DNA of 64,000 bases from Cyanidioschyzon merolae (Eukaryota). The translations under genes were made by a program, and so were the position numbers. Numbering within the stretch: position 1 is the first letter of the stretch; each line of letters starts with the position of its first letter. The notes under the pieces were generated by a model. It searched no databases. It was not told where the DNA came from and saw nothing but the letters and a program-made list of their open reading frames with translations. Positions 18,901 through 61,520 of the stretch are shown here, in pieces. The stretch lies in assembly GCA_000091205.1 (NCBI GenBank), contig AP006493.2. One strand, 5' to 3'.

Positions 18901-19293
18901 GGCGCCGCGCTCCTTTTCTCGTCGGGTCGGCAGCGCGAATCGTTGCGCCTACGAGTTGCGTCGCGACTGAAATGACGAAAACTCGAAGAATACGTGATTC
19001 GAGCGTGATAGACGTAAGGAAAGGAGGAGCGTGGCGGTCACTCACATGAACAGGACGGTGATATCGAATATTTTTTTGAAATCTTTTTTTAGGACGCCGC
19101 ATTTCGTCTTGATTCCAGAGCCGTAACGAGCTGCAGTTGTGAAGCATTGAACGAGCCATTGCGAAAAGACAACCTAGAGTCGGAGAACGGACCGTGAATC
19201 CGAAATTCCTTATTATTGGACTTTGAACGTCTAGGATGTGTATCTATAAATTTTCAGGAGGAAATTGAAAGATAGAAACATGTCGAACCGCTT
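15905..19293. repeat. inverted-repeat arm A (~3.39 kb), ~99% identical to the reverse complement of 26708..30100; non-coding dispersed element
   Basis: Every ORF in this arm has a mirror-image twin on the opposite strand of the other arm, with 0-2 aa differences (for example 17136..17603(-) versus 28403..28870(+)). Boundaries were found by direct comparison of the reverse-complement sequence. It contains a (GTG/GCT)n microsatellite at ~18722-18790. The longest ORF is 181 aa, basic, with no domain. Confidence 0.9.
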
Positions 19294-19945
19294 AGTGCTT
19301 TATTTCCAGATGACGCGAACGTTGGAATGCGCAGTGCAGCGCACGGAGAGCCGCGCCTGCGCACCGATTGCCTGCTGCGCTCGGTGACGTGTCTAGCACG
19401 CATCGCGCTCTTTGCACGCATCTCGGCGCATGCGTGTAACATAACATTTGCACGCTTGTTGTTGCGTAAAACTTCCGTTTTAAAGTTGTTTTTCTATTTT
19501 TGGAGTTCCTTGCTTGGGCGATGCGTTGCTCTGAACATGAAAAACTGGCAAGAATTTCAGGTATTTTGGTCGACCCACGTTTATCGCGAACGTGGGTCAC
19601 GAAACGCTCGCGACGAGTGCGTGGTACGGCCCGAGGTAACGTGCGACACAGAACGTACAGCAGTGGTGTGTTGCACTGGTTTGGTTGAGTTGTTTCGGCA
19701 ATTTCTGTCCTTAATCGTTTGCGCCAGGCATCTCGGGCCTCTTGGCGTCTATCTTTAGAAATATGCTTTCACACGGGAAACTGAACTTCGCTTGAACAAA
19801 AACAGCGCTTTCAATGCTGAAAAAGCTGCTCGAGGCGCTTTGCTTTGTTTCCTCGGTACCTCGGTAAGATTTTCTTATCCTTAGACTAGTTCACCCAAAC
19901 TTCATGGTGGTTGCTGGCTGGGGGCCGATCATCTTTCAAGGCGGA

Positions 19946-21229
19946 CTACGAGTCTTTCCTTGTCACTGGATTCATACCTGTTACGGAATTGCCGCCGCCG
20001 CTGCCCATTGGGCCGCCAGAGTTTTGCCCACCGAGGCCACCTCCAGTACCAGATCCGCTAGACATATCCGGTGCGTTCGGACGGGTCGGTGGTGCTTGCG
20101 TTTGCGGTGGTGGTGGTGGTGTAGGCTGCTTCGGTGGCGCCAATATGGGAGCCTGTGGTGCTGTAGGCCCATCCCCATTCATCATTTGTTGCCCATTTCT
20201 GGGGCCGTTGCCGCCACCGCTGCCTATTGATCCGCCAGAGTTTTGCCCACCGAGGCCACCTCCAGTACCGGATCCGCTAGACATATCCGGTGCGTTCGGA
20301 CGGGTCGGTGGTGCTTGCGTTTGCGGTGGTGGTGGTGGTGTAGGCTGCTTCGGTGGCGCCAATATGGGAGCCTGTGGTGCTGTAGGCCCATCCCCATTCA
20401 TCATTTGTTGCCCATTTCTGGGGCCGTTGCCGCCACCGCTGCCTATTTGTGCGCCAGAGTTTTGCCCACCGAGGCCACCTCCAGTACCAGATCCGCTAGA
20501 CCCGTCCAGCAGATTTGGCTGAGGCTGTGGTGTGTGCTGATGTGGTGGTGGTGTTGGCGGCTTCGGTTGCGTTGGTGTTGGAGCCTGTGGCGCTGTAGCC
20601 CCGTTCTCATTCATCATTTGTTGCCCATTTCTGGGGCCGTTGCCGCCACCGCTGCCTATTTGTGCGCCAGAGTTTTGCCCACCGAGGCCACCTCCAGTAC
20701 CAGATCCGCTAGACCCGTCCAGCAGATTTGGCTGAGGCTGTGGTGTGTGCTGATGTGGTGGTGGTGTTGGCGGCTTCGGTTGCGTTGGTGTTGGAGCCTG
20801 TGGCGCTGTAGCCCCGTTCTCATTCATCATTTGTTGCCCATTTCTGGGGCCGTTGCCGCCACCGCTGCCTATTTGTGCGCCAGAGTTTTGCCCACCGAGG
20901 CCACCTCCAGTACCAGATCCGCTAGACCCGTCCAGCAGATTTGGCTGAGGCTGTGGTGTGTGCTGATGTGGTGGTGGTGTTGGCGGCTTCGGTTGCGTTG
21001 GTGTTGGAGCCTGTGGCGCTGTAGCCCCGTTCTCATTCATCATTTGTTGCCCATTTCTGGGGCCGTTGCCGCCACCGCTGCCTATTTGTGCGCCAGAGTT
21101 TTGCCCACCGAGGCCACCTCCAGTACCAGATCCGCTAGACCCGTCCAGCAGATTCGGCTGAGGCTGTGGTGTGTGCCGATGTGGTGGTGGTGTCGGCGGC
21201 TCCGTAGTCGGTGTAGGCGGCTTAGTCAT
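19946..21229 (-). CDS. mucin-like glycoprotein, C-terminal repetitive part (Gly/Pro/Gln-rich 71-73-aa repeats), likely a continuation of 21222..22382
   Basis: Begins 'MTKPPTPTTEPPTPPP', which continues the PT repeat. It then carries ~5.5 copies of the unit 'GSSGSGTGGGLGGQNSG.QIGSGGGNGPRNGQQMMN..G.TAPQAP...PPTPPP'. Confidence 0.55.
   Translation of the reverse strand: MTKPPTPTTEPPTPPPHRHTPQPQPNLLDGSSGSGTGGGLGGQNSGAQIGSGGGNGPRNGQQMMNENGATAPQAPTPTQPKPPTPPPHQHTPQPQPNLLDGSSGSGTGGGLGGQNSGAQIGSGGGNGPRNGQQMMNENGATAPQAPTPTQPKPPTPPPHQHTPQPQPNLLDGSSGSGTGGGLGGQNSGAQIGSGGGNGPRNGQQMMNENGATAPQAPTPTQPKPPTPPPHQHTPQPQPNLLDGSSGSGTGGGLGGQNSGAQIGSGGGNGPRNGQQMMNGDGPTAPQAPILAPPKQPTPPPPPQTQAPPTRPNAPDMSSGSGTGGGLGGQNSGGSIGSGGGNGPRNGQQMMNGDGPTAPQAPILAPPKQPTPPPPPQTQAPPTRPNAPDMSSGSGTGGGLGGQNSGGPMGSGGGNSVTGMNPVTRKDS
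20016..21170. repeat. tandem minisatellite, unit 213-219 bp, ~5.5 copies (coding)
   Basis: 'ctccagtacc' recurs at 20041 and 20260 (219-bp spacing) and at 213-bp spacing further downstream. There are two unit subtypes. Confidence 0.85.
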
Positions 21230-21595
21230 TGGCGTTGGCGGCTCCGTAGTCGGTGTTGGCGGCTTCGTAGTCGGCGTTGGCGGCTTCGTAGTCGGTGTCG
21301 GCGGCTTCGTAGTCGGCGTTGTCGTGCCTAGTCGTCGGTGTCGGCGGCTTAGTAGTCGGCGTAGGCGGCTTAGTAGTCGGTGTAGGCGGCTTAGTAGTCG
21401 GCGTAGGCGGCTTAGTAGTCGGCGTAGGCGGCTTAGTAGTCGGCGTAGGCGGCTTAGTAGTCGGTGTAGGCGGCTTCGTAGTCGGTGTAGGCGGCTTAGT
21501 AGTTGGCGTCGGCGGCTTCGTAGTCGGTGTAGGCGGCTTAGTCGTCGGTGTTGGCGGCTTAGTCGTTGGCGTCGGCGGCTTAGTCGTCGGCGTTA
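21190..21595. repeat. tandem repeat, 21-bp unit (ggcggcttNgtagtcggYgtN), ~19 copies, encoding (PTTKPPT)n on the minus strand
   Basis: Direct reading of the sequence. The antisense frames give the spurious 'VGVGGLVVG' and 'RRLSSRRRRLSS' ORFs. Confidence 0.9.
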
Positions 21596-22382
21596 ATGTT
21601 GGTGTCGGCGTTGGTATTATTGTAATCGGTGGCATTGGTGTCGGTATCTGCGTAGTAGTCGGCGTTGGAGGTATCGTTGGCTTGACTATTATGATCGTTG
21701 GTGTTTGCGTTGGTGTTTGAATGGAAAATACCTCCTGATGACATACACGTTTCACTTCTTTGCAGATGATTGTACAAGCTGGCTGAGCGGGGCTCTTCGA
21801 CGCAACAGTTCCCTGAACTTTTCCCAGAGTAGTCTTCTGTGGTGTGCTAGGTATCCACCTATCCGAAACTGGAACCTTCCCTGATACGTCCTTCTGTGGT
21901 CCAAACACCAACGAGCACTTTTCCTCTGCTGTGAAGCTTTCAACGCACACTCGACAGATATTCTTCAGTGCATACATCTCGCACACTGTTTGGTTCTTAT
22001 AGATGCATTTCTGGTAACAGTCATTTGGAGCATGAACTGGCACGTTCCCTTTCCTCACATTTGTGTATCCTTCTGTCCTTGCATTCTTTGAAAGCCCATA
22101 CTTTTCCTTGGGCGAGGCGTTCTCGAAGTTCGAGCTCGCTGGACAAATCCAGACTTTCTTCTCACAGACTTTCACTACTGCCTCTTCAATGCAGACTTGC
22201 TCCAGACGGCAGTCTTCGATCGTGATCAAAGGCTGGCAGTAGTCCAGGTTGCGTTGGAGCGAGTTTCGTGCCGGCGAAACTTCGCTCCAAGTTTCTCGTT
22301 GGATACCATTGGTAAGCACAGCGCTGTTTAGGTACAAAAGAATGAGCAGCCAAAAGATCCCAACTGAAACAAAGCTTCTCAT
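21222..22382 (-). CDS. secreted mucin-like surface glycoprotein, N-terminal part: signal peptide, Cys-rich domain and (PTTKPPT)n repeats
   Basis: N-terminus 'MRSFVSVGIFWLLILLYLNSAVL' is a signal peptide. It is followed by a ~200-aa Cys-rich region, then ~19 copies of the 7-aa 'PTTKPPT' repeat. It overlaps the next ORF (19946..21229) in a different frame, so this is probably one gene with a real or sequencing frameshift. Confidence 0.65.
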   Translation of the reverse strand: MRSFVSVGIFWLLILLYLNSAVLTNGIQRETWSEVSPARNSLQRNLDYCQPLITIEDCRLEQVCIEEAVVKVCEKKVWICPASSNFENASPKEKYGLSKNARTEGYTNVRKGNVPVHAPNDCYQKCIYKNQTVCEMYALKNICRVCVESFTAEEKCSLVFGPQKDVSGKVPVSDRWIPSTPQKTTLGKVQGTVASKSPAQPACTIICKEVKRVCHQEVFSIQTPTQTPTIIIVKPTIPPTPTTTQIPTPMPPITIIPTPTPTLTPTTKPPTPTTKPPTPTTKPPTPTTKPPTPTTKPPTPTTKPPTPTTKPPTPTTKPPTPTTKPPTPTTKPPTPTTKPPTPTTKPPTPTTRHDNADYEAADTDYEAANADYEAANTDYGAANAND

Positions 22383-24624: not shown

Positions 24625-25701
24625 CTATATGAGAGTGACGATGGAGCTCACCGCGCTCAAGGGCGCCGACGGCGAGGCTACCGAAATCGATGGGCTTGTG
24701 CTCGGTGAGACGGAGGAGCTTATAGAGGTCGTCGCGCTCACGGACACCGACGGCGAAGCTACCGAAATCGATGAACTTGTGCTCGGTGAGACAGAGGAGC
24801 TTATAGAGGTCGTCGCGCTCACGGACACCGACGGCGACGCTACCGAAATCGATGGGCTTGTGCTCGGTGAGACGGAGGAGCTTACGGAGGCCGTCGCGCT
24901 CACGGACACCGACGGCGAAGCTACCGAAATCGATGGGCTTGTGCTCGGTGAGACAGAAGTGCTTATGGAGATAGTCGCGCTCACAGTCGCCGATGGCGAA
25001 ACGCTTCTTGACACTGTTGCTGACGGAGAGGCAGATGGTAGCAGTGTAGGCTGCACAGTCGGAGTCGGAAGGAAAGTGCCGATGATTACGTTCCTGCATT
25101 GCTTTCCGCTGAACAGACATTCATACTGACAGTTTCCATTTTGCTGTTGATACGACTGCCCCCAGCGCTTTGATACCGGATCGGAACCATCCAATGTCCG
25201 TTGAACCACAGTATCGCAAACTTCCACAAGCTCGTAATTCGTCCTGCATGCTGTGCACACATTTGCCGTGCGATACTCTACACAGGTTTGCTCGCCGAAA
25301 GACAAGCAGTCACCACATCCGCTATATTGATTTTGCCTCCAACGCAGCACCTTGAAATCTTTCGAGTCGAATCCCGCCAAACCCTGATTTTCTTTGGTAG
25401 CTTCACGGCCGAGCGTCTGGCTGCCGTGACCACTGCCAATCTCAGCAGAGGAGCGTAGCGTACATGCCGTGCCTGTGAGAGAACAGCTTCCGTTGACAAT
25501 CACTTTCGTGCATACGTTCTGCAGGGTGCAGTTATGCAGCGAAGAAGACGAGGGGCACACATAAACACTGTTTCCACCGCTCGTATACCAACGCCTTTCC
25601 GCTGGCCTCGCTGCTAGTACAGAGTCCACTCGCACTGCGTTCGTGAACAGAAGGAGCAACAAAACCGCCAAGGAATGTGTACGGAGCGCGTTATGAATCA
25701 T
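24625..25701 (-). CDS. secreted Ser-rich repetitive cell-surface protein (signal peptide, Cys-rich domain, S/P/T/V 28-aa repeats, hydrophobic C-terminus, possible GPI anchor)
   Basis: N-terminus 'MIHNALRTHSLAVLLLLLFTNAVRVDSVLA', then a ~200-aa Cys-rich region, then 4-5 copies of 'SVSPSTSPSISVASPSVSVSATTSISSS'. It ends '...SAVSSIVTLI'. Confidence 0.65.
   Translation of the reverse strand: MIHNALRTHSLAVLLLLLFTNAVRVDSVLAARPAERRWYTSGGNSVYVCPSSSSLHNCTLQNVCTKVIVNGSCSLTGTACTLRSSAEIGSGHGSQTLGREATKENQGLAGFDSKDFKVLRWRQNQYSGCGDCLSFGEQTCVEYRTANVCTACRTNYELVEVCDTVVQRTLDGSDPVSKRWGQSYQQQNGNCQYECLFSGKQCRNVIIGTFLPTPTVQPTLLPSASPSATVSRSVSPSATVSATISISTSVSPSTSPSISVASPSVSVSATASVSSSVSPSTSPSISVASPSVSVSATTSISSSVSPSTSSSISVASPSVSVSATTSISSSVSPSTSPSISVASPSAPLSAVSSIVTLI
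24650..25010. repeat. tandem repeat, 84-bp unit, ~4.3 copies (coding)
   Basis: The antisense + strand ORF shows the matching 28-aa periodicity 'LTDTDGEATEIDGLVLGETEELIEVVA'. Confidence 0.85.
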
Positions 25702-26707
25702 CCTGTATAGCCCCCTTGAGGTTGTTGAAGAACAACAATATTATTTTGAATATTTCCGGACGAAATTCTTTTTTGAGTGCTATGCACGGGGATGATGCAC
25801 GGATTCGCGCATCTGCGGACAGCGATTTTCCCGCCAACTTCAATTTCGCGAACGATTGATTACGTTCGCGCCAAATCGAACCGCTGCGCACCATACGATT
25901 GCGACGCTCGTATCCTTAAACATGCTGGAACGCTAGTCGCGCAAGCTCAGCTTTCCCGGGCAGTTATGCGAATTAAAACAGTTCCGACACGCTTTGGATA
26001 GAGTACCATTAGTCTTGTCACGTTGCAATAACGACTTGAGGCGTAAAACATGGATCATTGTAGCGGGGTGCTACCCTCGAGCGTCGGCGCCAGAGTAAGC
26101 CTCTGATCCTGAATAGGGTGTACAAGAGAAGATGCGAGCTCGCAAGTGCGAAGTAGCCAGTTCTATTGCACGTCGCAGATGCGTCCAGCGTGTGCGAATT
26201 GTCGATCGGGCAAGAGGGCAGGCGTCATAGCGACCGCATACGGATATTCGAAATCTATAGGGCATCGGTTCCGACCTGCTTTGGTATATAGATATTTTGA
26301 ACTTCTGCATGTACGTTATTTGGCGTATACACTGAAGACTTCTGTCGTGGAAAATTTTAAACCTCGTACGCTTAGGCTTGCGTCTCTCAAATCGGTGTGG
26401 CGAGGTGAAGGCCTCAAATAAATGTAGGTTTACGCATTCTTTTGCTCAACAAGGACCTGGCATCCAAATCATTAATTTCATATATTGAGAAATTTCTCAG
26501 AGAATGTATGTGAACGCCTCGCCCTATTGCCTTAAAAGACAGCTATTTGGCGACATGTCGTATGCGTGTTAACGAGGCGCTGAATATTGACAGCGCAAGA
26601 TCGCCTGCCAGAGCACCACAGGACTCTAGATATCCGAATCTAAAGTGCAATTTCTACTCAGTATAAAGAGCATTGGTGCAGTCTCTAAAGAAACTAGTTA
26701 TGATGGA

Positions 26708-29700
26708 GCACTAAGCTGTTCGACATGTTTCTATCTCTCCATTTCCTCCTGAAAATTTATAGATACACATCCTAGACGTTCAAAGTCCAATAATAAGGAA
26801 TTTCGGATTCACGGTCCGTTCTCCGACTCTAGGTTGTCGTTTCGCAATGGCTCGTTCAATGCTTCACAACTGCAGTTCGTTACGTCTCTGGAATCAAGAC
26901 GAAATGCGGCGTCCTAAAAAAAGATTTCAAAAAAATATTCGATATCACCGTCCTGTTCGTGTGAGCGACCCCCACGCTCCTCCTTTCCTTACGTCTATCA
27001 CGCTCGAATCACGTATTCTTCGAGTTTTCGTCATTTCAGTCGCGACGCAACTCGTAGGCGCAACGATTCGCGCTGCTGACCCGACGAGAAAAGGAGCGCG
27101 GCGCCATCCCTTGGTGACTTCTCCACACGCTCCCGCCGAAAGCTCAATGAGCTCGTCACGTTAAGCAATCGATCCCGCCCGAAAGACAATTCCAGCCCGC
27201 TCCGTGGCCATCGAAGAGAAGGGACCCGAAATCAGCAGCAGCAGCAGGAGCAGCAGCACCACCACCACAACCACATTCCCGCCCGTGGGATCCGCTCCCA
27301 GAGGCTCGCGTCTCTTCTGTTCGCATGGGAAAGGGTGCTGGACGCGGACTGCAGTCATCGCAGCGATGGATTCCGGTGGCAAGTGCGTCATCGCTTAGCG
27401 GCACGGCAGGAGCGCCGACGGATCGACGTTTCTACGCTGCGTCGCGAATCTGGAGTTCCACTCCAGCCACTGCGTGTTTCATCATAGACAGCAACGCGTT
27501 CCACGAATTCCCTTCTATTCGGCAAACAGCAAAGAGCGGGCATTGGTCATCCTGCACACGCACACACCAGCTTATGCTCTGTGTTTCAAACCGATGGAGA
27601 ACGGTTGCGGGGCCGTCAAACGCAGCCTCAGAGAGGCCGATGCACGCTTCGGGATAACGCGGCTCGCTCTCGACACGAACTGATGCCCGGTGCTCTAGGA
27701 ACTGCCGTTCAGACCAATGGACCTGTTGGAGTTTGTATAGGGAAACTCGCTGACGATTGCGGTTCGTGGAATTCCGAAGTCGTACGAAGAGAAAAACAAG
27801 GTATAAATACTTTAGTTATACGGCATGCTTATCGACGGAGGCACACAACCGCCGCACACGAGAGGTCTCAGAGAAACGACTGTGTAGTTAGACGAAAATC
27901 GTCCAAGAGCGTAACGAAAAGAGATGCGTACCGCTTCCAGACGAGCTCGCCAGTCTCGGACGGGGCGGTTTCCTGAACGGAACGCTTCGCTTGGGTGTGT
28001 TCACGGACGAGGAGCGGCGCTCATCGTTACTGCCGGAAACGGCGGTCGTTCAGTGCCAGCTTGGAACGTGCGTGCTCCCACCGGAACACGTGGCACGCGA
28101 CATGTACCTGGTGGTTCTTTGCAGCAAGCTCCGGCGACACGCTTGCCTCAAACTCAAGTCCGCGTGCTTCGAGTGTGCCGAGGTCTTTGGAAACGTCCAG
28201 CACTTTGTAGAAGCGCAGCTGACACCGATAAGCTTTTCGTCCTAGTTGTCCCCGAGTGCGCACCAGGCAGACTTGACCCGCAACTAGCCTTCATCGGCGA
28301 CGCACGGACGTCGGCTCCCAAGCTGGACAGCATTGGGAGCGTCGAGGGCCTCTCTCGCTTGGTGACTCAAAGCGCCCCAGATAATACGAATGGGTACGGG
28401 GAATGATACGCACAGTGACGCTGAGAAGGGTGAGCATACACCTCCACCGGCACGTGAAAGATTCTATGGGGTGGAGGCGAAAGTGCGACGACTCGGCGAC
28501 CGGCATGGGCGGTATGAAGGAGCTCTTCATGACCGACGCTTCGTTGCAGCCAGTCGGCTCGAAGGATTGCGAGACCATGATGAATGTCCGTCATCTGGCC
28601 CTTCGCGACGAGGACGTTGTCTCGAAGATGGACCTGTCGCACGCGACTAACGCACCCACGAATGCGATGGCGCGTCTGCACCCAGCGTGCCGGTCCAGAG
28701 CCTCCGTCAGGGGAGGAGTACGCGGCTTTTACGAACGCACGTCTCCGTGGCTCGTGCCACTGCCAGCAAGCACACTTTTTCGCTTTGTCGTGGATCGTGA
28801 CGCCGCGCGAGGGTTACGCAGATGCGTCCGATGGAGAACAAGTGTGTCGAGGAAGAGGAAGAGAGGCTGATCGCTAGGTGCAAGCCCAGACAGCGAACTA
28901 TGCGCCCGCACCCGAAGATTCGAGGAAACTCATGAACCGCTTGACGAGCGAGAAGCGACGGAGCGCGCAGGAGGGCGCGGAGGCGAAGGGAGACCGGAGG
29001 AACCGGAGCTTCGCGCTTCCAACAGGAGAAGTAGAGTCGTCGTTCGCTTCCGATAGCGCGAGCGTGTCCATCGCCGTCAAGCGCGAACGCTCTATACGAT
29101 TGAAGAATCGTCAGGGCGCCGATGCACCCTGGTTAGAGGGGAAAATGTGCGGATGAACAACGAACAACTGGGATGCGCGGCGGCGCGAACTTGCTCCCCA
29201 ATGCGATCGGCCTCAACTTGGACCCAAAGAGATCGGGTTCCTGAACCTTCACGATGATTGCGAGATCCGAAGGGATGCCCGACTTGCCTGTGGTCACCGA
29301 CGACGCACTGGAGCCGCGAGTCTCGAACACGCCGATTCCCGCTCAAAGTCGTAGCTTGGACTCGAGTACCTCATATGTTCGCCTAAGCGGACGGTGAGCG
29401 AGTGAGGCACTCGTCCGACGCGCAAACGAGTGAGACAGGAGAGAGTCCCAGTAGCCTTGGCGGCATTATCACAAGCAGGTGGCACAATCGGACCTGATGG
29501 CCCGTCACGCTCATCTGCACAGTTTGTGGGAAGGGAACGCAGGAAAGCAAGAGCGCACAAGGAATCGGTTGTTGAGGTACCGAATGGAATAGCGTGCGCT
29601 TGCGAGTGCAGCGGGCAGCGCACGCGCACAAGAAGTCGTCCAGAAGAGCAAGTGCATGATCACGGGGCACAGCACTGGGCGCGAAAACGGAGCAAGGCAT

Positions 29701-30100
29701 CGCGTAGAGCCTTCTGTACCCGTCAACGACAGCTACGGAGGGATGCAGCAAGCGCTCGCATGCTGCAGGTCGGCTCCCAGGGAATGCGAGCTCGTGAACA
29801 CATACGGGAATATCTGAACACAATCAGGTTAACCGCTTTGAAGCGCGCACCAGCACTGAATTCTAGGAAACGAAGAAAACGGCAAGCGATCCGTAAATCG
29901 CAACCTCCGCCTGCACATCGAATACGCAGGCAACTGCCGGAACCTGTGAAACTGCGACCCCAACGCCGCGATTAGCATCCCTCGACAGCCTACAACAGTG
30001 CTGGAAAGAAAGTAGCGACCGGCGTGTTCCAGCCCGGAGCTAAGAGAGAGGAAAAGCGATCAGCCGCAGCAAAAGCTCCCATGGGATGGCTTTCATGACT
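26708..30100. repeat. inverted-repeat arm B (~3.39 kb), reverse complement of 15905..19293
   Basis: See arm A. The mirrored ORF set (26847..27164, 27156..27404, 27924..28406, 29430..29975 and others) matches it. Microsatellite at ~27232-27290. Confidence 0.9.
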
Positions 30101-38305: not shown

Positions 38306-38896
38306 ATGATCAAAACGCGTGTCACAGCTTTCGTGCAACTCCCGGTTAGCGCTCAGTCGGGGCGTGCTGCCAGAGTGAACGCGCCGCGCAAGCACCGGCT
38401 GCAATCTCGAAAGTTCGTGCTCCATAGCGAGCTTCGTGTGGACCGTCGTGTTTTTCTGCGAAATAGTCTTGCGGTGTTTCTCGGGAGCCTCACCGCTGCT
38501 TTCTCTGCTTCGCGCACCGACTGGGGCGCGCAACCTGCAAACGCAGAAGTACTACGTCACGCAGCGCCGGGCTACGAGCTGCACGGCGACTACCACGAAG
38601 ACGCAACGCAGGTTGTGCAGTCGATGCGAACAGTAACTAGGTTGGAGCGGGGGACTCCTGGAATGAAAGAGAAAGTAGACGCAACTCGGAAGCAAATGAA
38701 CGATTTTGTCGCGCTTTACAGGAGGAACCCAAACGTTGCAGGGGCCGTGTCTTTCTCAACGCTGTATACTGCGATAAATACGCTGGCGGGTCATTTTGCA
38801 AGCTATGGCAGTACGTATCCTGTGCCGGAGAAAAGGAAAAAGCGCTTGGAGCAACAGCTCAATGACGTGGAGAGGGCCCTTAGTCGAGGTCGCTAG
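38306..38896 (+). CDS. PSB27: photosystem II repair/assembly protein Psb27, thylakoid-lumen targeted (twin-arginine signal)
   Basis: The mature region aligns closely with Synechocystis Psb27. 'MNDFVALYRRNPNVAGAVSFSTLYTAINTLAGHFASYGSTYPVPEKRKKRLEQQLNDVERALSRG' matches 'INDYISRYRRKGDAGGLKSFTTMQTALNSLAGYYTSYGARPIPEKLKKRLQLEFTQAERSIERG'. It is preceded by an S/R-rich presequence and the Tat motif 'DRRVFLRNSLAVFLGSLTAAFSA'. Confidence 0.9.
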   Translation: MIKTRVTAFVQLPVSAQSGRAARVNAPRKHRLQSRKFVLHSELRVDRRVFLRNSLAVFLGSLTAAFSASRTDWGAQPANAEVLRHAAPGYELHGDYHEDATQVVQSMRTVTRLERGTPGMKEKVDATRKQMNDFVALYRRNPNVAGAVSFSTLYTAINTLAGHFASYGSTYPVPEKRKKRLEQQLNDVERALSRGR

Positions 38897-49746: not shown

Positions 49747-50871
49747 TTATTCGCTCTTTGCGGTGCGTGGTGCCGCAGCGGAACCAGCCCCGAATCGGCT
49801 CAGTTGTGGATCCTCGAGCCCCAGCTCTCGAAATGCAGTATGCCTGATACGACAGGCGTCGCAGCGTCGGCACGGTTTCCCCGACTCATCTAACGGATCG
49901 TAACAGCTGTGCGTGATGGAGTAGTCCACACCGAGCGCCAGGCCTGTGCGAATGATCTCGGTCTTCGGCATCTGCAACAGTGGTGCATGGATTCGAAAGC
50001 GCCTTGCATCGGAAGGCGCCACACCAGCGCGGGTGCCCAGCTCGGCAACCCGCTCAAAAGCGTGAAAGAATTCCGGCCGACAGTCGGGGTACCCTGAGTA
50101 ATCCACAGCGTTTGCGCCGATGAAAATATCGTAAGAGCCCTGAACCTCGGCGAGGGCGAGCGCATACGCGAGAAATATCGTATTCCTCGCTGGCACATAG
50201 GTCAGCGGGATTGTTTCTGGGGTATGTTCCCAGACATCGTCGACGTTCGCTGCTTTGGGAACGGGTATATCGGGAGCTGTCAATGCTGATCCGCCAATAC
50301 TTCCGAGGTCAAGGCGGATCCAGTGCTGTCCAGTGACTTGCTGCGCTCGCGCTACGCGCCGTGCCGCTTCGAGTTCGCAGCGGTGCCGTTGCCCGTAATC
50401 GAAACTCAGGGCCTTGCAGATGAACCCTTGCGAGCGTGCAATCGCCAGCGTCGTTGCTGAGTCCAGACCACCGCTGAGCAGAACGATAGCGACGGCACCG
50501 TTTTGAACTCCAGCCTGTCCCTGAGCGAGACCTCTAGAAGCAGACCGTGGAGGTGTAAGGCTGCTCGCACCGCGAACAGACCCAAACCTCGAGTGCAGCG
50601 CCGAGCTGGCACGATCGGCGGTGAAGCGCGTGTTCAGGCCGGCCTGCAATGATAACACGTCGCCTGTGAAGCACACCGATGGGTGCTGATCACCGTTATT
50701 CCAAGTGCTTGTACAGCGTTTACCCAGCTGGTAAAGAGATACGTTCTGCAACTTGTGGCAGCGTTCGGCGTTTGCGGAACGGTATCGAGACGCCTCAGCC
50801 CATGGTCCCGTGCACTGCGTCGACCGCAACCACAGCCGACAAGCGGAGCGCAGTGCAACTGCACCGAACAT
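49747..50871 (-). CDS. queC: 7-cyano-7-deazaguanine (preQ0) synthase QueC with a ~120-aa N-terminal extension
   Basis: Core matches bacterial QueC throughout: PP-loop '[15 protein letters not shown]', '[15 protein letters not shown]', '[17 protein letters not shown]', and the C-terminal Zn site '[26 protein letters not shown]' (canonical 'TCYNG...CGHCAACNLR'). The N-terminal 120 aa are Ser/Arg-rich, consistent with an organelle presequence. Confidence 0.85.
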
Positions 50872-51134
50872 GTTCTCGATAGCTTCAGTGCACTACTACA
50901 AGCGTCACCAAAACCATTACCTTCAGAAGAAGCAACAACGTCACCAGAGGCTTCTGCCGTTTCTGCTGCACACCTTGCGTCCACGAACGCCTATAAAGCT
51001 ATTGCGGAGCGCGCGATCGTTAGATCAGGGCGCTGTGGAAGCGCACGAGCTCGAAGCCACTGCTTCGAAGCCGAGTTGTTGCTAGACCTCTCGGGTTTTG
51101 CTACCGCTGGACTCGGTTTGCGTCAACAGGCACA

Positions 51135-52238
51135 GTGAGGAAGCTGGTGCTAGATCACCTACCTCCTGGCGGTATGTGGACAGGATTGGTTGTTCCTGGT
51201 CAACAGTGGAAGAACACTGGAACAAGACGACGTTGCCGCAGGTGCTTAACTGGGTCGACACGAGCGGCTCTCGCGCAACCCTGGCAACGCCTCGTGCAGT
51301 GCCCGGTGCTGAAGCAACCCGCCAGGAACGCTCTGGCGGTGACTGCGACGCATCCGGCGCTTCGACGTGCGCTTGTCTCTGTGCTACTCGTGGGGCTATG
51401 TTTCACCAACGACAGCCGGGTGTACGCAGTTCCCGCTCACGAACCTGTGGAACAAACGGACTCGACCGAACGGAGCCAGGCTATCGAACGTGAGCTCGAA
51501 GCAAAGTTTACGCAAGCGCTACGCCTCACCGAACAAGCTTCCTGGGAAGAAGCGGACAAGGCATGGAGTGCAGTGTTGGCCTTGGACCCGGACAACGGAG
51601 CCGCGCTCTCGAACCGAGGTCTCGTTCGCTTGTCGTTGCATCGCCTGGACGCAGCGCTCGCAGACCTCCAGCAGGCCGTCGAACGCTCACCCGCTGAGCC
51701 GGTCCTTCACGAGAACCTCGGTCTCGTCTATGAAGCCCGTGGTGAATGGGAACCAGCGCTCGAAGAGTATACAAAAGTTTTACAGAGCGTTCCAGCAAGC
51801 GCGACGGCCTTGATAAACAGGGGAAACGTGCAGGTCTCGCGCGGAGCGTACGCTGAAGCGCTTGCAGACTACCAGGCGGCTGCAGACGCGGAAACTGGTC
51901 TGGCTGCTCCACGCGAAAAAATGGCCCTGGTTATGGCACAGCTGGGACGTTCTGACGACAGTATTCAGATCCTGCGTCAGGTGGTACGCAAGTATCCAAC
52001 ATATGCCGAAGCGCATGCAGCGCTTGCAGCGGTGCTCTGGGGCGCAAAACATGACTTTCTCAGTGCCGAGGATCAATGGGCCCGTATTTCGAACAACGAA
52101 TTACGGGAGGAGATGTCGGAACTCGAAAACCTGCGCATCTACTCCCGATGGCCACCGCGTATGATTGAATACCTGCGCGAATTCTTGAACTTGGAGACCG
52201 CAAATCAGGAGATCGAGTCTGCCGGTTTTGTGCTCTAG
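51135..52238 (+). CDS. TPR-repeat protein with a twin-arginine (Tat) thylakoid-lumen-type signal
   Basis: 'LRRALVSVLLVGLCFTNDSRVYA|VPA' (RR plus hydrophobic core plus AxA-like cleavage site). At least four TPR units follow ('AWSAVLALDPDNGAALSNRGLVRLSLHRLDAALADLQQAVE', 'YAEALADYQAAAD' and others). Confidence 0.55.
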   Translation: MRKLVLDHLPPGGMWTGLVVPGQQWKNTGTRRRCRRCLTGSTRAALAQPWQRLVQCPVLKQPARNALAVTATHPALRRALVSVLLVGLCFTNDSRVYAVPAHEPVEQTDSTERSQAIERELEAKFTQALRLTEQASWEEADKAWSAVLALDPDNGAALSNRGLVRLSLHRLDAALADLQQAVERSPAEPVLHENLGLVYEARGEWEPALEEYTKVLQSVPASATALINRGNVQVSRGAYAEALADYQAAADAETGLAAPREKMALVMAQLGRSDDSIQILRQVVRKYPTYAEAHAALAAVLWGAKHDFLSAEDQWARISNNELREEMSELENLRIYSRWPPRMIEYLREFLNLETANQEIESAGFVL

Positions 52239-56338: not shown

Positions 56339-57628
56339 ATGCCATTATCGGTTATTCTGTTTCACTGCTCTGGTTCCTTCAACAGCTCGGAGCGTTATCG
56401 GGGACAACTGGCCCGGAACCCCGTGTGTGTGTGTGAAAGAGCGGTGTCGCAGCGCTGGAGCCGAACACCGATTGTTCTTGTTGCTGCCGCTGGTGCTGCT
56501 GAGCAGCGCGCGCCCTTGAAAGAGTGCGCTTGTACCTTGGACTGCACGGATATGTGTGTCTTCGTGCGAGTGCCTGGCAGGCCGGCGGCACTACGGAGTG
56601 TGGTTTGGAAGCGCAGCGCTCTTCTGTGCCAGTGGTCACCGGTCGCCTGGTGGTCGCGTCCTCGCCTCGCGCTTGGTTGCCGTGGAACGCGTCGAAGTGC
56701 CGCGGAGAGCACACCAGCGACGCTCGGACGAGTTATTTGCACAGCGCTTTCGTCCAGTCTACGAGTACGGGTCAACAAGGCGCTTCGAGAGCGCTTCTCT
56801 CGACGACAAGCGGATGAGCTGGTGCGTTCTGGCCGGGTCACGATTAACGGAAACCCGGCAACGCTCGGAGCGCGCGTCTCCGTGGACGACGTGATCGCTG
56901 TCGACGGAGAGCTGGTTTCCCTGTCGCAGAGCGCGTTCATTGCAGAAACTGACTTGGCTGCTATTGATTCGTGCTTTGTATATTTCAAGTACTGGAAACC
57001 GGTTGGTGTCGAGTGTACTACCGCCCCAGCCGTACCCGGCAACGTGCTAGAGGCGTCGGGGCTCGGTGCCTGGGCGGACCAGCACCATCTTCGTTTGTTC
57101 AACGTCGGACGTCTAGATAAAGACTCAACGGGCGTGTTGCTACTGACGAATGATGGACGCGTCGGGAACGCGCTTCTAGGAAGGAACAGTGGTTTTGTGA
57201 AAAGCTATCTGGTCACGCTGGACAAACCGATAGCTGACGAGGATATCGAGGCCATTCAGCAAGGCTTTGTGGTCGAAACCGAATACCGGCACGACAAGAA
57301 AGTGAAAACGATTCGCTTGCCAACCTTACCGTGTGCAGTGCGACGGCGCCCGCAACTCAACGAGATCGAAATCGATATTCATGAGGGCCGTAACCGTCAG
57401 ATTCGGCGAATGCTCATTTCACTTGGGTACCAAGTACGACGGCTGCATCGATTTGCCTTTTGCGGTATTGAACTGGGGCCAGAGCTAGATAAAGAGGGTT
57501 CCTGGGCGCCACTGAACGAACGTGAACTTGGAATCATTGCGGAGGCGCTGCGTATGCATGCGGAGCACAAAAGCATGCCCAGTCACAAGCGGCCTACCCA
57601 GTTTCGCATTCTCGATACAAGATCATGA
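56339..57628 (+). CDS. RsuA/RluB-family pseudouridine synthase (S4 domain plus PseudoU_synth_2), bacterial/organellar type, with an N-terminal extension
   Basis: S4-like 'RQADELVRSGRVTINGNPATLGARVSVDDVIAVDGELV'. Catalytic 'VGRLDKDSTGVLLLTNDG' (conserved Asp). 'IEIDIHEGRNRQIRRMLISLGYQVRRLHRFAFCGIEL' is the RsuA-family C-terminal motif. The first ~130 aa lie outside the domain. Confidence 0.75.
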   Translation: MPLSVILFHCSGSFNSSERYRGQLARNPVCVCERAVSQRWSRTPIVLVAAAGAAEQRAPLKECACTLDCTDMCVFVRVPGRPAALRSVVWKRSALLCQWSPVAWWSRPRLALGCRGTRRSAAESTPATLGRVICTALSSSLRVRVNKALRERFSRRQADELVRSGRVTINGNPATLGARVSVDDVIAVDGELVSLSQSAFIAETDLAAIDSCFVYFKYWKPVGVECTTAPAVPGNVLEASGLGAWADQHHLRLFNVGRLDKDSTGVLLLTNDGRVGNALLGRNSGFVKSYLVTLDKPIADEDIEAIQQGFVVETEYRHDKKVKTIRLPTLPCAVRRRPQLNEIEIDIHEGRNRQIRRMLISLGYQVRRLHRFAFCGIELGPELDKEGSWAPLNERELGIIAEALRMHAEHKSMPSHKRPTQFRILDTRS

Positions 57629-58285: not shown

Positions 58286-59032
58286 TCAGTCAGATGGCTT
58301 CTCTTTGGTATAATTGCTTCTTTTGCGCGCTTCCTCGCTTACTCTTTGCATGATAAACGTATACGTCTTATCAAAGTCAGGAACTGCTCGAAGCTCCAGC
58401 CTCGCTCCGCCCTTGAGCAGAATCACGTAGTCTGCGGAGATACCGCCGAACCTTCGAACGTATCGTACTTCCTCAATATCACGATAAACTACTTCGGTTT
58501 CATCACGACCCATGAATCCTGCCCGAACGTATATGCTGCGGTTCGAAATACGGTAACGAACCCAGTACTGTCGCGCTAGCGCTGCCGCGAAAGGTATCAC
58601 GCCGATAACCGTGAGAATCGAAAGCCCCGGCAGAAGCAACTCCGTCCAGGAAGGCGGTCCATCATAGAACGTCTGTTCAGGCTCTAGCGATGATGGTTTG
58701 CGAATTGCTTCTTCCTCCTCGTCCACGGACTTTTTGCGAACCTTCATCACCGGAGACGGAAGTCTGCGAAGCGGCGGCCTCTGCGTGCGCCGTCCCACAC
58801 GCCGTTTCACGCTGGTGGGCGTCACAAGCGGTTGCACCACGCGTGCCGACACAACAGCTGGTAGCGCTACGAACATGTTTGAGACGTATGACGTTCCAAC
58901 TTGGACTGCTGTGGGAAGCGCTGTTCGCCAGCGTCTCAGTGAATGCCGGGCGTTCTGGTTGCCAACGCCCAGCTCAGTTCCAGAGCACGAGTAGCACACT
59001 AGTGTACCTCTGTGAACACCTTGAAAAACCAC
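58286..59032 (-). CDS. membrane protein with a bacterial PH (bPH_2/YdbT-like, DUF304) domain
   Basis: Two TM helices ('LLLPGLSILTVIGVIPFAAALA'), then 'RYRISNRSIYVRAGFMGRDETEVVYRDIEEVRYVRRFGGISADYVILLKGGARLEL', typical of bPH_2. Confidence 0.5.
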   Translation of the reverse strand: MVFQGVHRGTLVCYSCSGTELGVGNQNARHSLRRWRTALPTAVQVGTSYVSNMFVALPAVVSARVVQPLVTPTSVKRRVGRRTQRPPLRRLPSPVMKVRKKSVDEEEEAIRKPSSLEPEQTFYDGPPSWTELLLPGLSILTVIGVIPFAAALARQYWVRYRISNRSIYVRAGFMGRDETEVVYRDIEEVRYVRRFGGISADYVILLKGGARLELRAVPDFDKTYTFIMQRVSEEARKRSNYTKEKPSD

Positions 59033-59471: not shown

Positions 59472-61520
59472 TCATATGGGGTTTTCCTGGGCAAAGTCTA
59501 AGACAGCAAGTTTGTAGATACATAAATCGACCGCAGGATATGCGTGCAGGGGGCGTCGTTTTGTACTCGGCTTGTCCAAATGCTCCGCATATTTGCGCTC
59601 GTTACCGATCTGCGCAAAGTGCACGCGAACGATCGAGAGCGGCTCCACACAAACTTGTGGATCGACTCGGAGCGACACTCGGCAGAATCTTGTCTCACTG
59701 TTGCCGAAACAGTCATTTGGTGTCGATGTACCCTGGAGCGTGAACATCGCTGGCGAACGAAACGACAAAAGCGCTTCGTAGCGGACCTGCACGGATGGAG
59801 TTTCGTTTTGGAAGGATGCGTGCGCAGACGCACGACTCGTTGAAAAGAGCAGCATGATTGTTGCCGGACAGATCGGCTCCGACAGCTGGACTATCACTGA
59901 GGCAGAGCCACGGGGAACGTGCCAACACCGACCGCGTGAAAGCGGCGCATGAAGACCCTGCGACTGCAGCATAATGGCTGGCGCAAAAGGCAACGGGCGA
60001 TGGCAGTTGCGTGCAGCTCGCGATCCGAAAGCAGCCCTCAAGACGCAGCGCACGCGGTTGCTCCAGTAGCTGACAAATGTCCTTGTCCAGGAAGGCTGGG
60101 CGCGAATGATTCGTGCTCCAGCCGAGGCGAGCGCATAATCCGATGCTGCTGTCGACATCCACTGCGAGTTGTGCATGTGCGCACGCTGTCGACGCAGCAT
60201 GCCTTCGAGGCGCTCAAATCGAGTTTCCAAGTTGCGTACCAGTTGCATAGCGTCCGTGCGAACTGTTGCTAATGACTCGCGAAGCTCCCGTAGCTCTGTC
60301 GAGATTGCGGATGCCTGTTGTACATGTACATGTTGGAGATTATCGAGATCCACAAGCGCGCCTGCCTTGTTGTCACGCAAATATCCAAGCAATGTCTCCA
60401 CATCCGGCTGTGATTGAGAATCATCCCCGCGCCATGGGGACGAGGACGTATTCTCCATTCGAGTCAGTTGTTCGGAGAGGAGCGCTTCAATCCGATCAAT
60501 TCGATGGACGAGCTCATTCCAGTGGGAATCAGCGCGAGCAGGAGCGCGATGACGTAGCCACTCGGAATACCAGTGCATTCCAGGCAAAACATGATACGAG
60601 GCGATCGAAGCGCTCCACAGAGCTCTCCACGTGGATCTCTGGAACACGGATAAATGCCTAGCCCAGTCGAGTCCAGATCCAAAGTTCGATATCGCGCGTG
60701 GCCTCGTAGTTTGTATTGTTTCCCCTTTCATAGACGCTTTTGCATGGTGAGAGAATTGACGCAACCACACAGGCACACTACCTAATCGTGCAATGAGTTG
60801 GCCGCTCCGTTGAAAGCCGCTATAAAAGACGCTCACCAATTTTCGCGGCATCAGGTTCCCGGAGAATACTCTTCCCCGATCAGGGATCGAAAGCAATGCG
60901 GAGAAGGCTTTTCGATACGCTGGTGCGCCGGGCTTGAGACACCCTGTCAGAACACAGAGCAAACCGATAAGCACGAACATAGCTAGCTTGAAGGAACGAC
61001 GACGACGACGGGGTCGTGCTGCAAGGCTGGTCGTTTCCCAGCGGCGCCCGCGGCCGCCAGACGCAAGTCGCCCGTGTATGCTTGACCAGCGTTCGTGAAT
61101 TCGCGACACCGCCCATGCCAGAGAATAACTAACCAGATTCAAACTCCATACGAAGCGCAGTGCATCTGAAATCCGCTGAGAAGGCGCGTCTCGATCAGTG
61201 GCCTCGAAATGCACGCGCCTTGGGGTATGATTTGCCGGTAAGCGCGTTGCCCGCCCTGACGGGGTGCCAACAAGTTGGACATTGCCCGTTGTGCAACCAT
61301 CATCGTCAACTGGAGGTCGACACCTGCGGATCTTCTCACTGTGCCGAGTTGAATAATGATGCGCAAGCTTAGGTTCACTTCTGGGCGCGTCACCGCGCTC
61401 TGGGCTCTCCACAGAGAAGGAAAGACGCCGTCGCGTGCGTGGCGTTGCTTTCGGCTCTATAGCGGTTGGCGTATTGTTCCGCATGAAGCAACTCGTTACT
61501 ATTGTGCAGTGCTGCCCCAA
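59472..61520 (-). CDS. SUN-domain (Sad1/UNC-84) nuclear-envelope protein
   Basis: Classic architecture. N-terminal basic region, a single TM ('FKLAMFVLIGLLCVLTGCL'), long coiled-coil-like middle, and a C-terminal SUN-domain start motif 'DYALASAGARIIRAQPSW' followed by ~170 aa. Confidence 0.6.
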   Translation of the reverse strand: MGQHCTIVTSCFMRNNTPTAIEPKATPRTRRRLSFSVESPERGDAPRSEPKLAHHYSTRHSEKIRRCRPPVDDDGCTTGNVQLVGTPSGRATRLPANHTPRRVHFEATDRDAPSQRISDALRFVWSLNLVSYSLAWAVSRIHERWSSIHGRLASGGRGRRWETTSLAARPRRRRRSFKLAMFVLIGLLCVLTGCLKPGAPAYRKAFSALLSIPDRGRVFSGNLMPRKLVSVFYSGFQRSGQLIARLGSVPVWLRQFSHHAKASMKGETIQTTRPRAISNFGSGLDWARHLSVFQRSTWRALWSASIASYHVLPGMHWYSEWLRHRAPARADSHWNELVHRIDRIEALLSEQLTRMENTSSSPWRGDDSQSQPDVETLLGYLRDNKAGALVDLDNLQHVHVQQASAISTELRELRESLATVRTDAMQLVRNLETRFERLEGMLRRQRAHMHNSQWMSTAASDYALASAGARIIRAQPSWTRTFVSYWSNRVRCVLRAAFGSRAARNCHRPLPFAPAIMLQSQGLHAPLSRGRCWHVPRGSASVIVQLSEPICPATIMLLFSTSRASAHASFQNETPSVQVRYEALLSFRSPAMFTLQGTSTPNDCFGNSETRFCRVSLRVDPQVCVEPLSIVRVHFAQIGNERKYAEHLDKPSTKRRPLHAYPAVDLCIYKLAVLDFAQENPI

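What the first reader, a model, noticed from the sequence alone, without database searches (positions are those of the whole stretch)
49747..50871. Nuclear-encoded QueC (preQ0 synthase) with an organelle-style N-terminal extension in a eukaryote
The ORF is an unambiguous QueC, with PP-loop SGGxDS, 'FDYGQRH', 'SGYPDCR' and a C-terminal Cys4 zinc site. It has the same GC and codon style as its neighbours and is transcribed divergently, 264 bp away, from a eukaryotic-style Tat-signal TPR gene, so contamination is unlikely. Eukaryotes are thought to lack de novo 7-deazaguanine (queuosine/preQ0) synthesis and to salvage queuine instead. A nuclear, probably plastid- or mitochondrion-targeted QueC (120-aa S/R-rich presequence) would imply either an organellar de novo Q pathway of cyanobacterial or bacterial origin, or another use of preQ0 such as 7-deazaguanine DNA or RNA modification.
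Basis: partly seen in the sequence, partly recalled or inferred. Interest (0 to 1): 0.68.

Follow-up and report, generated by a model that had tools for sequence, protein, structure and literature searches.

The report
Nuclear QueC gene in red alga
A hot-spring red alga (Cyanidioschyzon merolae type) carries and transcribes a bacterial-type preQ0 synthase gene (QueC) with an organelle-style leader, which hints that this eukaryote may make the queuosine precursor itself, although the rest of the pathway could not be checked here.

Summary
Window 49747-50871(-) is an intact 374-aa ORF. Residues 128-350 are a textbook QueC: Pfam 3e-68, NCBIfam equivalog above cut-off, all motifs present, and the best fold matches are QueC crystal structures. 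The 127-aa N-terminal extension contains no internal Met.

The window is Cyanidioschyzon merolae-type nuclear DNA, and the gene is CMK180C, still annotated 'transcription regulator exsB'. Contamination is excluded. The block kinase-TPR-QueC-RINGv-ATP synthase d-Psb27 is syntenic in Cyanidiococcus and Cyanidium. The four algal QueCs form one clade. Composition matches the neighbouring genes. Wild metagenome contigs carry the same intact ORF. Published RNA-seq gives about 120 TPM.

The leader is present in every ortholog but poorly conserved (about 20% identity against 65-79% in the core). It is basic, amphipathic at its tip and predicted disordered. Mitochondrion versus plastid is undecided.

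A chlamydial-type bacterial TGT is already published for this alga. GTP cyclohydrolase I and a PTPS/QueD-like gene are annotated and expressed. QueE, QueF, QueA and QueG could not be tested because no genome is held and three indirect searches were inconclusive.

Best reading: an organellar preQ0 synthase feeding a bacterial-type queuosine pathway. De novo synthesis is plausible but unproven. I found no paper describing this.

The parts
49747..50871 (-). Complete QueC coding sequence (374 aa plus TAA); C. merolae gene CMK180C
50491..50871 (-). N-terminal extension, residues 1-127. It has a basic amphipathic tip (predicted helix 2-17) followed by an A/S/R/G-rich disordered stretch. It is a presumed organelle-targeting peptide with or without a linker.
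   Evidence: Bacterial homologs start at about residue 122-128. Extension identity between algae is about 20-26%.
49822..50490 (-). QueC catalytic domain (residues 128-350), adenine-nucleotide alpha-hydrolase fold
   Evidence: Pfam and NCBIfam. pLDDT is mostly 80-98. Foldseek top hits are QueC 2pg3 and 3bl5.
50458..50475 (-). PP-loop ATP-binding motif SGGLDS (residues 133-138)
   Evidence: invariant in 32 aligned sequences
49852..49905 (-). Zinc-site cysteines C323, C334, C337 and C340 (CYDP...C..C..C)
   Evidence: invariant in 32 aligned sequences
50872..51173 (.). Spacer shared with the divergently transcribed TPR gene; presumed bidirectional promoter region (inferred only)
   Evidence: The same head-to-head arrangement is found in Cyanidiococcus and Cyanidium.
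51174..52238 (+). Neighbouring TPR protein with an RR-hydrophobic N-terminal motif. It is context only and not part of the pathway.

Best explanation
CMK180C is a nuclear gene of bacterial ancestry in Cyanidioschyzon merolae. It encodes an active 7-cyano-7-deazaguanine (preQ0) synthase. By established QueC chemistry, the enzyme uses ATP twice and ammonia to turn 7-carboxy-7-deazaguanine into the nitrile preQ0.

The 127-aa leader most likely sends the protein into an organelle, either the mitochondrion or the plastid, or possibly both. There, after reduction to preQ1, preQ0 would be inserted at position 34 of organellar GUN-anticodon tRNAs by the chlamydial-type bacterial TGT already known in this alga.

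Shown here: enzyme identity, nuclear location, conservation, expression, and the presence of a leader. Inferred: catalytic activity, import, and the existence of QueE upstream and QueF, QueA and QueG downstream. Together these would amount to de novo 7-deazaguanine and queuosine synthesis in a eukaryote.
For: QueC identity: the family models score above their curated cut-offs. All catalytic and zinc residues are invariant. The fold matches QueC structures with TM 0.74-0.81 normalised to the target.

Nuclear and vertically inherited: the neighbours are eukaryotic genes, namely Der1, mitochondrial carrier, UBR4-like, SRPK-like kinase, WD40, ATP synthase d and Psb27. The same gene order occurs in Cyanidiococcus (L001) and Cyanidium (L002). 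The algal clade has SH-aLRT 98. GC and codon use match the neighbours. The identical ORF lies in the same context on hot-spring metagenome contigs. Eleven population variants keep the ORF intact with at most 4 substitutions.

Selection: core identity is 65-79% against 20-26% in the leader.

Expression: CMK180C is at 105-129 TPM in eight wild-type RNA-seq samples (PMC12770821 Table S2).

Leader: it is present in all four algal orthologs and absent in bacteria. In three of the four orthologs there is no acidic residue in the first 25 positions; Cyanidiococcus has E8 and E24. Net charge of the first 40 residues is +3 to +5, and the amphipathic moment in three of the four orthologs is 0.5-0.6 starting at residues 4-7. 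A helix is predicted at residues 2-17, followed by a disordered stretch.

Pathway context: a chlamydial-type queuine/preQ1 tRNA-ribosyltransferase was identified from the Cyanidioschyzon genome (PMC2530860; PMC2376095). [quoted passage not shown] GTP cyclohydrolase I (CMF055C) and a PTPS-like gene (CMG095C, a QueD candidate) are annotated and expressed. In the closest bacterial relatives, queC sits next to queE and queF, so this QueC type belongs to the Q pathway.
Against: No QueE or QueF of cyanidiophycean origin turned up in two length-filtered homology searches or one representative search. Those output lists were truncated to the top 120 or 150 hits, so this is not evidence of absence.

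The stored part of the C. merolae annotation table (roughly chromosomes 1-13) has no entry named radical SAM, queuine, ribosyltransferase or nitrile reductase. However, the 2004-era names are poor and the table is cut off.

Localisation rests on crude sequence features. The leader is long for a mitochondrial presequence, its composition also fits a plastid transit peptide, and one ortholog (Cyanidium) has only about 36 residues.

No Q or preQ nucleoside data for this alga were found in the literature.
Confidence: 0.6

Rival explanations
1. preQ0 is made but used for something other than queuosine in tRNA. Candidates are a 7-deazaguanine DNA modification (Dpd-like), a preQ0-level tRNA modification, or a deazapurine metabolite.
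For: QueC-family proteins also serve Dpd DNA modification, toyocamycin-type pathways and CBASS (Cap9 is a fold and sequence hit). QueF was not found.
Against: The protein passes the QueC equivalog model, whereas Cap9 matches only weakly (26.5 bits). Its closest bacterial relatives sit in queC-queE/queF contexts. A Q-type bacterial TGT is already known in this alga. No DpdA-like gene is known or was seen.
Confidence: 0.1
2. It is an orphan relic: a once-transferred bacterial gene that is kept and transcribed but has no working pathway around it, or that has a moonlighting role. In this case no 7-deazaguanine is made.
For: QueE and QueF were not demonstrated. Cyanidiophycean genomes are highly reduced.
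Against: Every catalytic and zinc residue is invariant. Core identity of 65-79% is retained across three genera while the leader drifts. The ORF is intact in all wild variants. Expression is about 120 TPM. Streamlined genomes rarely keep useless genes.
Confidence: 0.12
3. The enzyme is cytosolic. On this view the N-terminal extension is a disordered regulatory or linker tail and not a targeting peptide.
For: Residues 16-119 are predicted disordered. The extension is 127 aa, longer than usual presequences. No predictor or experiment was available.
Against: The tip is basic and amphipathic; it is free of acidic residues in three of the four orthologs and strongly amphipathic in three of the four. 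The short Cyanidium leader (MLLRRLSRAG...RCY/A) looks like a classic presequence. Partner enzymes of the pathway are predicted to be organellar in algae (PMC12301720, PMC2376095, PMC2530860).
Confidence: 0.12
4. Bacterial contamination or a chimeric contig.
For: The best non-algal hits are bacterial at 55-66% identity.
Against: Conserved synteny with eukaryotic genes is seen in three independently assembled genera and in metagenome contigs. The algal sequences form a distinct clade with a long stem. Composition matches the host. The leader is absent from bacteria. By contrast, the brown-alga EukProt QueC (P0027) nests inside Phycisphaeraceae, which shows what contamination looks like.
Confidence: 0.01

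Closest known systems
Bacterial QueC (7-cyano-7-deazaguanine synthase; B. subtilis 3BL5, Pectobacterium 2PG3; TIGR00364 / PF06508)
   Same: It shares the domain, the PP-loop, the FDYGQRH and SGYPDCR motifs, the Cys4 zinc site and the fold. It is 55-66% identical to many bacterial QueCs.
   Different: It is encoded in a eukaryotic nucleus. It carries a 127-aa leader that no bacterial homolog has. It is monocistronic with eukaryotic neighbours and is not in a queCDEF operon.
Bacterial-type queuosine salvage and modification pathway proposed for Chloropicon mitochondria (YhhQ, BL-TGT, QueA, QueG) and noted in Galdieria (PMC12301720); chlamydial-type TGT of red algae (PMC2530860, PMC2376095; Manna and Harman 2016 as cited in PMC12301720)
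   Same: Both involve nuclear genes of bacterial origin for Q-tRNA formation that carry organellar presequences, in algae including red algae. The QueC here would plug into exactly this pathway.
   Different: Those reports cover only the steps from preQ1 onward and assume uptake of the precursor. QueC belongs to the precursor-synthesis half (GTP to preQ0), which has not been described in a eukaryote in any paper I could find.
QueC-like proteins outside Q synthesis (Cap9 of CBASS, 9NTO; DpdC; ToyM)
   Same: They share the fold and the C-terminal zinc region.
   Different: The match to Cap9 is weak (26.5 bits, C-terminal part only). The algal protein passes the strict QueC equivalog model, and its nearest relatives sit next to queE and queF.
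Eukaryotic queuine salvage (QTRT1/QTRT2, QNG1/DUF2419)
   Same: It gives the same end product, Q34 in GUN tRNAs.
   Different: The enzymes are unrelated and there is no 7-deazaguanine synthesis. Reviews state that queuine is made only by bacteria (abstracts of PMC4425180 and PMC10639084). Whether C. merolae has this system was not tested.

Membership tests
QueC (preQ0 synthase, TIGR00364 / PF06508) | Score above the curated family cut-offs | tested here: met
   TIGR00364 scores 177.8 bits against a cut-off of 150.3. PF06508 scores 229.8 bits against 22.
QueC (preQ0 synthase, TIGR00364 / PF06508) | PP-loop SGGxDS ATP site | tested here: met
   SGGLDS at residues 133-138; invariant in 32 sequences.
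QueC (preQ0 synthase, TIGR00364 / PF06508) | C-terminal four-cysteine zinc site | tested here: met
   C323, C334, C337 and C340 are invariant.
QueC (preQ0 synthase, TIGR00364 / PF06508) | Adenine-nucleotide alpha-hydrolase fold closest to solved QueC structures | tested here: met
   AlphaFold core pLDDT is mostly 80-98. Foldseek ranks 1, 3 and 4 are QueC 2pg3 and 3bl5, with TM 0.74-0.81 normalised to the target.
QueC (preQ0 synthase, TIGR00364 / PF06508) | Catalyses CDG + 2 ATP + NH3 to preQ0 | not testable with these tools
   Needs an enzyme assay on the mature protein.
Nuclear-encoded organelle-targeted protein | N-terminal extension relative to prokaryotic homologs, kept in orthologs | tested here: met
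   The extension is 127, about 125, about 130 and about 36 aa in the four algal orthologs and absent in bacteria.
Nuclear-encoded organelle-targeted protein | Presequence-like physico-chemistry (basic, few acidic residues, amphipathic or hydroxylated) | tested here: inconclusive
   The home-made metrics fit both a mitochondrial presequence and a red-algal transit peptide. No TargetP-type tool was available.
Nuclear-encoded organelle-targeted protein | Experimental localisation | not testable with these tools
   No localisation data were found.
Complete de novo queuosine pathway | FolE (GTP cyclohydrolase I) | tested here: met
   CMF055C is annotated as GTP cyclohydrolase I and is at about 115 TPM (PMC12770821 Table S2). 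This rests on annotation only, and the enzyme is shared with folate synthesis.
Complete de novo queuosine pathway | QueD (CPH4 synthase) | tested here: inconclusive
Complete de novo queuosine pathway | QueE (CDG synthase, radical SAM) | tested here: inconclusive
   No algal hit appeared among the top 120 or 150 of two searches. The lists were truncated and no genome is held.
Complete de novo queuosine pathway | QueF (preQ0 reductase) | tested here: inconclusive
   No algal hit appeared in the top 120 of 610.
Complete de novo queuosine pathway | Bacterial-type TGT | not tested
   Literature only. It was identified from the Cyanidioschyzon genome as a chlamydial-type queuine tRNA-ribosyltransferase (PMC2530860, PMC2376095).
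Complete de novo queuosine pathway | QueA and QueG/QueH | not tested
   They are reported for 'some red algae, notably Galdieria' (PMC12301720). C. merolae is not named there.
Cap9 / Dpd-type QueC-like proteins | Closer to Cap9/DpdC than to canonical QueC, with a defence or dpd gene context | tested here: not met
   Cap9 scores 26.5 bits against about 90 bits for QueC. There is no such gene context in the window.

The most novel reading that the evidence does not exclude
Cyanidiales (Cyanidioschyzon, Cyanidiococcus, Cyanidium) would be the first eukaryotes shown to be autonomous for queuosine. They would have a complete nuclear-encoded, organelle-located FolE-QueD-QueE-QueC-QueF-bTGT-QueA-QueG pathway of mixed bacterial origin. 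This would let an obligate photoautotroph living in acid hot springs, and in purely inorganic medium, modify its organellar tRNAs without any bacterial queuine supply. Through Q turnover it might also modify its cytosolic tRNAs.
Probability: 0.45. Interest if true: 0.75.

Novelty: new member of a known kind. Interest (0 to 1): 0.55.

Why it matters
Reviews state that queuine and queuosine are made only by bacteria and that all eukaryotes must salvage them (abstracts of PMC4425180 and PMC10639084). An expressed, conserved, leader-bearing QueC in a genetically tractable, axenically grown, obligately photoautotrophic alga challenges that rule.

It makes the question directly testable. CMK180C can be knocked out or tagged, and Q can be measured in organellar and cytosolic tRNA of cells that never see a bacterial source.

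It would also extend the recently proposed organellar bacterial-type Q pathway of algae from salvage to synthesis. It would add a case of pathway assembly from several bacterial donors, with TGT from Chlamydiae and QueC from elsewhere.

At the least, the public annotation 'probable transcription regulator exsB' should be replaced by '7-cyano-7-deazaguanine synthase, organellar precursor'.

Tried and rejected
1. Whole-genome search. No genome is held for the window, and the algal assemblies behind L001 and L002 cannot be searched.

2. Finding algal QueE and QueF with the search for homologous proteins.
- Ordinary bacterial queries would return only bacteria. I therefore padded bacterial QueE (Smithella, L003) and QueF (Pirellulales, L004) with upstream read-through, recoding the stops, and scored only the real domain. 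This let the tool's length window exclude normal-length bacterial proteins.
- The filter worked. Even so, the top 120 hits were bacterial mis-called starts, insertions or fusions.
- The result is inconclusive and says nothing about absence.

3. Representative-library search with a planctomycete canonical-type QueE. The long or offset hits turned out to be Rhodopirellula and similar bacteria.

4. Window and syntenic loci. No other Q-pathway gene lies within the 64 kb window or in the 21-kb flanks of the Cyanidiococcus and Cyanidium orthologs. No tRNA gene or Rfam element is in the window.

5. Literature. Nine searches found no paper on QueC, QueE, QueF or preQ0 synthesis in red algae. Supplements of the cyanidiophycean HGT and genome papers either are not held or do not list the gene. 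Annotation tables are cut at about chromosome 13.

6. Cyanobacterial origin. No cyanobacterium is among the named top-120 protein hits or the best 80 genome loci. I could not fetch a cyanobacterial QueC to put in the tree, so this origin is unsupported but not formally rejected.

7. Its 600-row and best-80 limits made recovery of the few algal contigs very unlikely.

Full report
**What is there.** On the minus strand, 49747-50871 is an uninterrupted ATG-to-TAA ORF of 374 aa. An in-frame stop lies 8 codons upstream. There is no methionine between M1 and the catalytic domain, so any functional product must include the whole N-terminus. Residues 128-350 match Pfam QueC (PF06508, 3.2e-68). They also match the NCBIfam equivalog TIGR00364 at 177.8 bits, above its 150.3-bit cut-off. 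The best PDB sequence matches are the two QueC crystal structures. They are invariant in an alignment of 32 algal and bacterial sequences. An AlphaFold model has a confident core (pLDDT mostly 80-98 from residue 122 to 365). Its closest solved folds are QueC 2pg3 and 3bl5.

**Whose DNA it is.**
- The exact protein is on record in NCBI, UniRef and EukProt on an 852,849-bp contig.
- The nearest named orthologs are Cyanidiococcus yangmingshanensis (76% identity) and Cyanidium caldarium (64%).
- The RNA-seq table of a C. merolae paper lists the gene between two hypothetical proteins as CMK180C, 'probable transcription regulator exsB'. ExsB is the obsolete name of QueC.
- The rest of the window is plainly eukaryotic. 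It holds Der1, a mitochondrial carrier, a UBR4-like protein, GlmS, WD40, an SRPK-like kinase, RING-CH, ATP synthase subunit d and Psb27.

**Contamination is excluded.**
- The gene order kinase - TPR - QueC - RINGv - ATP synthase d - Psb27 is the same in the independently assembled Cyanidiococcus and Cyanidium genomes. It is also the same on hot-spring metagenome contigs that carry the identical protein.
- In a maximum-likelihood tree with 78 of the closest bacterial QueCs, the four cyanidiophycean sequences form one clade (SH-aLRT 98) on a long stem.
- GC (0.59), GC3 (0.60) and codon frequencies are those of the neighbouring genes.
- For contrast, the only other 'eukaryotic' hit is a brown-alga EukProt entry without a leader. 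It sits inside Phycisphaeraceae next to a MAG, and that is what a contaminant looks like.

**Is it alive?**
- The catalytic core is 65-79% identical among the algae, while the leader is only 20-26% identical.
- Eleven population variants from metagenomes differ by at most four residues, and none disrupts the frame.
- In eight wild-type RNA-seq samples the gene is at 105-129 TPM. That is comparable to citrate synthase in the same table.
- The refuter 'untranscribed' therefore fails.

**The leader.**
- Bacterial QueCs begin about six residues before the PP-loop. The algal proteins add 127 aa (C. merolae), about 125, about 130 and about 36 aa (Cyanidium).
- The tip is basic. In three of the four orthologs it has no acidic residue in the first 25 positions (Cyanidiococcus has E8 and E24). 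In three of the four it is strongly amphipathic from residues 4-7. It is modelled as a short helix followed by about 100 disordered residues rich in A, S, R and G.
- The Cyanidium leader, MLLRRLSRAG...PRCY/ARV, looks like a classical mitochondrial presequence with an arginine at -3. This is my reading of the sequence.
- The long hydroxylated, acid-poor C. merolae leader beginning MF- would also suit a red-algal plastid transit peptide.
- I cannot decide between the two organelles, and dual targeting is possible.
- Published predictions for the partner enzymes also disagree. One paper puts the TGT in the plastid (PMC2530860). Two others put it, with QueA and QueG, in the mitochondrion (PMC2376095, PMC12301720).

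**Pathway context.**
- Published: Two phylogenomic studies that screened the Cyanidioschyzon genome found a bacterial-type, Chlamydiae-derived queuine/preQ1 tRNA-ribosyltransferase. A 2025 paper proposed a mitochondrial bacterial-type Q salvage route (YhhQ, BL-TGT, QueA, QueG) in Chloropicon. [quoted passage not shown] None of these papers mentions QueC or any step before preQ1.
- Upstream genes: the C. merolae table lists CMF055C as GTP cyclohydrolase I and CMG095C as a PTPS-like protein that could be QueD. Both are expressed.
- Bacterial relatives: in the nearest bacterial genomes, queC lies beside queE and/or queF. This QueC lineage is therefore the Q-pathway one.

**What I could not settle.**
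- No genome is held for the window or for the algal loci.
- To get around the flood of bacterial hits, I ran two homology searches in which a bacterial QueE or QueF domain was scored while a padded query length excluded normal-length bacterial proteins. I also ran one representative-library search.
- All listed hits were bacterial. Only the top 120-150 of 610-16,000 hits are shown, so these negatives carry little weight.
- QueE, QueF, QueA and QueG in C. merolae remain untested.

**Interpretation.**
- The best-supported reading is an active, organelle-targeted preQ0 synthase.
- QueC's only known substrate comes from QueE. A streamlined genome has kept this gene intact, in place and expressed across three genera. 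The alga is an obligate photoautotroph cultured without bacteria, and it also keeps a preQ1-type TGT. A de novo route is therefore the most economical explanation.
- That explanation is an inference. I put it at about 0.6 for the overall statement and about 0.45 for a fully complete pathway.
- The rivals are another use of preQ0, an orphan relic, and a cytosolic enzyme. They are listed with the results that would decide between them.

**Origin.**
- The algal clade groups with Phycisphaerae and a Fimbriimonadales MAG (SH-aLRT 93, not a secure branch). It does not group with the two Rickettsiales sequences in the set.
- No cyanobacterium appears among the named best hits.
- I could not add a cyanobacterial sequence. 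The origin is therefore 'bacterial, donor unresolved, no sign of plastid ancestry'.

**Novelty.**
- The protein is an ordinary QueC, and the sequence has been public for two decades under a misleading name.
- What appears new is its meaning: a precursor-synthesis enzyme of the queuosine pathway in a eukaryote. Nine literature searches found no paper stating this, while reviews still say only bacteria make queuine.
- I rate it a new member of a known kind. Interest is moderate to high and depends on the missing genes.

Noticed in passing
window 15907-19299 and 26707-30099: A 3,393-nt inverted repeat, 99% complementary, with 7.4 kb between the arms. The arms carry small ORFs without Pfam matches. 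The interior holds three ORFs of 358-427 aa (19946-21229, 21222-22382, 24625-25701), also without Pfam matches. Its nature is unknown.
   Followed up: partly
window 10758-11804 (-): An ORF with a reverse-transcriptase domain (RVT_1, 1.2e-15), probably a retroelement remnant. Short unannotated ORFs follow just downstream.
   Followed up: no
window 49747-50871 (gene CMK180C): The public C. merolae annotation still calls this gene 'probable transcription regulator exsB', an obsolete name. It should read 7-cyano-7-deazaguanine synthase.
   Followed up: yes
protein P0027 (EukProt EP00752 Nemacystus decipiens): The only other 'eukaryotic' QueC in the hit list has no leader. It nests with a Phycisphaeraceae MAG (SH-aLRT 99, very short branches), so it is most likely bacterial contamination of that brown-alga dataset.
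   Followed up: yes
window 56339-57628 (+), 58286-58876 (-), 38306-38896 (+), 51174-52238 (+): Several neighbours are also bacterial-type proteins with long N-terminal extensions. They are an S4 + RluA-type pseudouridine synthase (domain starts at about residue 154), a bacterial PH-domain protein (bPH_2, domain from residue 105), Psb27, and a TPR protein with an RR-hydrophobic Tat-like motif. All are syntenic in Cyanidiococcus and Cyanidium.
   Followed up: partly
window 51135 vs 51174: The TPR ORF listed with a GTG start at 51135 more likely begins at the ATG at 51174 in this eukaryote. That makes the QueC-TPR spacer 302 bp and not 263 bp.
   Followed up: partly
proteins P0137, P0138, P0150, P0164, P0175, P0201 and others (bacterial): Natural QueC-QueE fusion proteins of 420-490 aa are common among uncultured bacteria, and QueD-QueE and QueF fusions also occur. 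In Smithella (L003), queC and queE are in the same frame, separated by one stop and one codon.
   Followed up: no
window 59472-61484 (-), 902-1564 (+): ORFs of 670 aa and 220 aa have no Pfam match.
   Followed up: no
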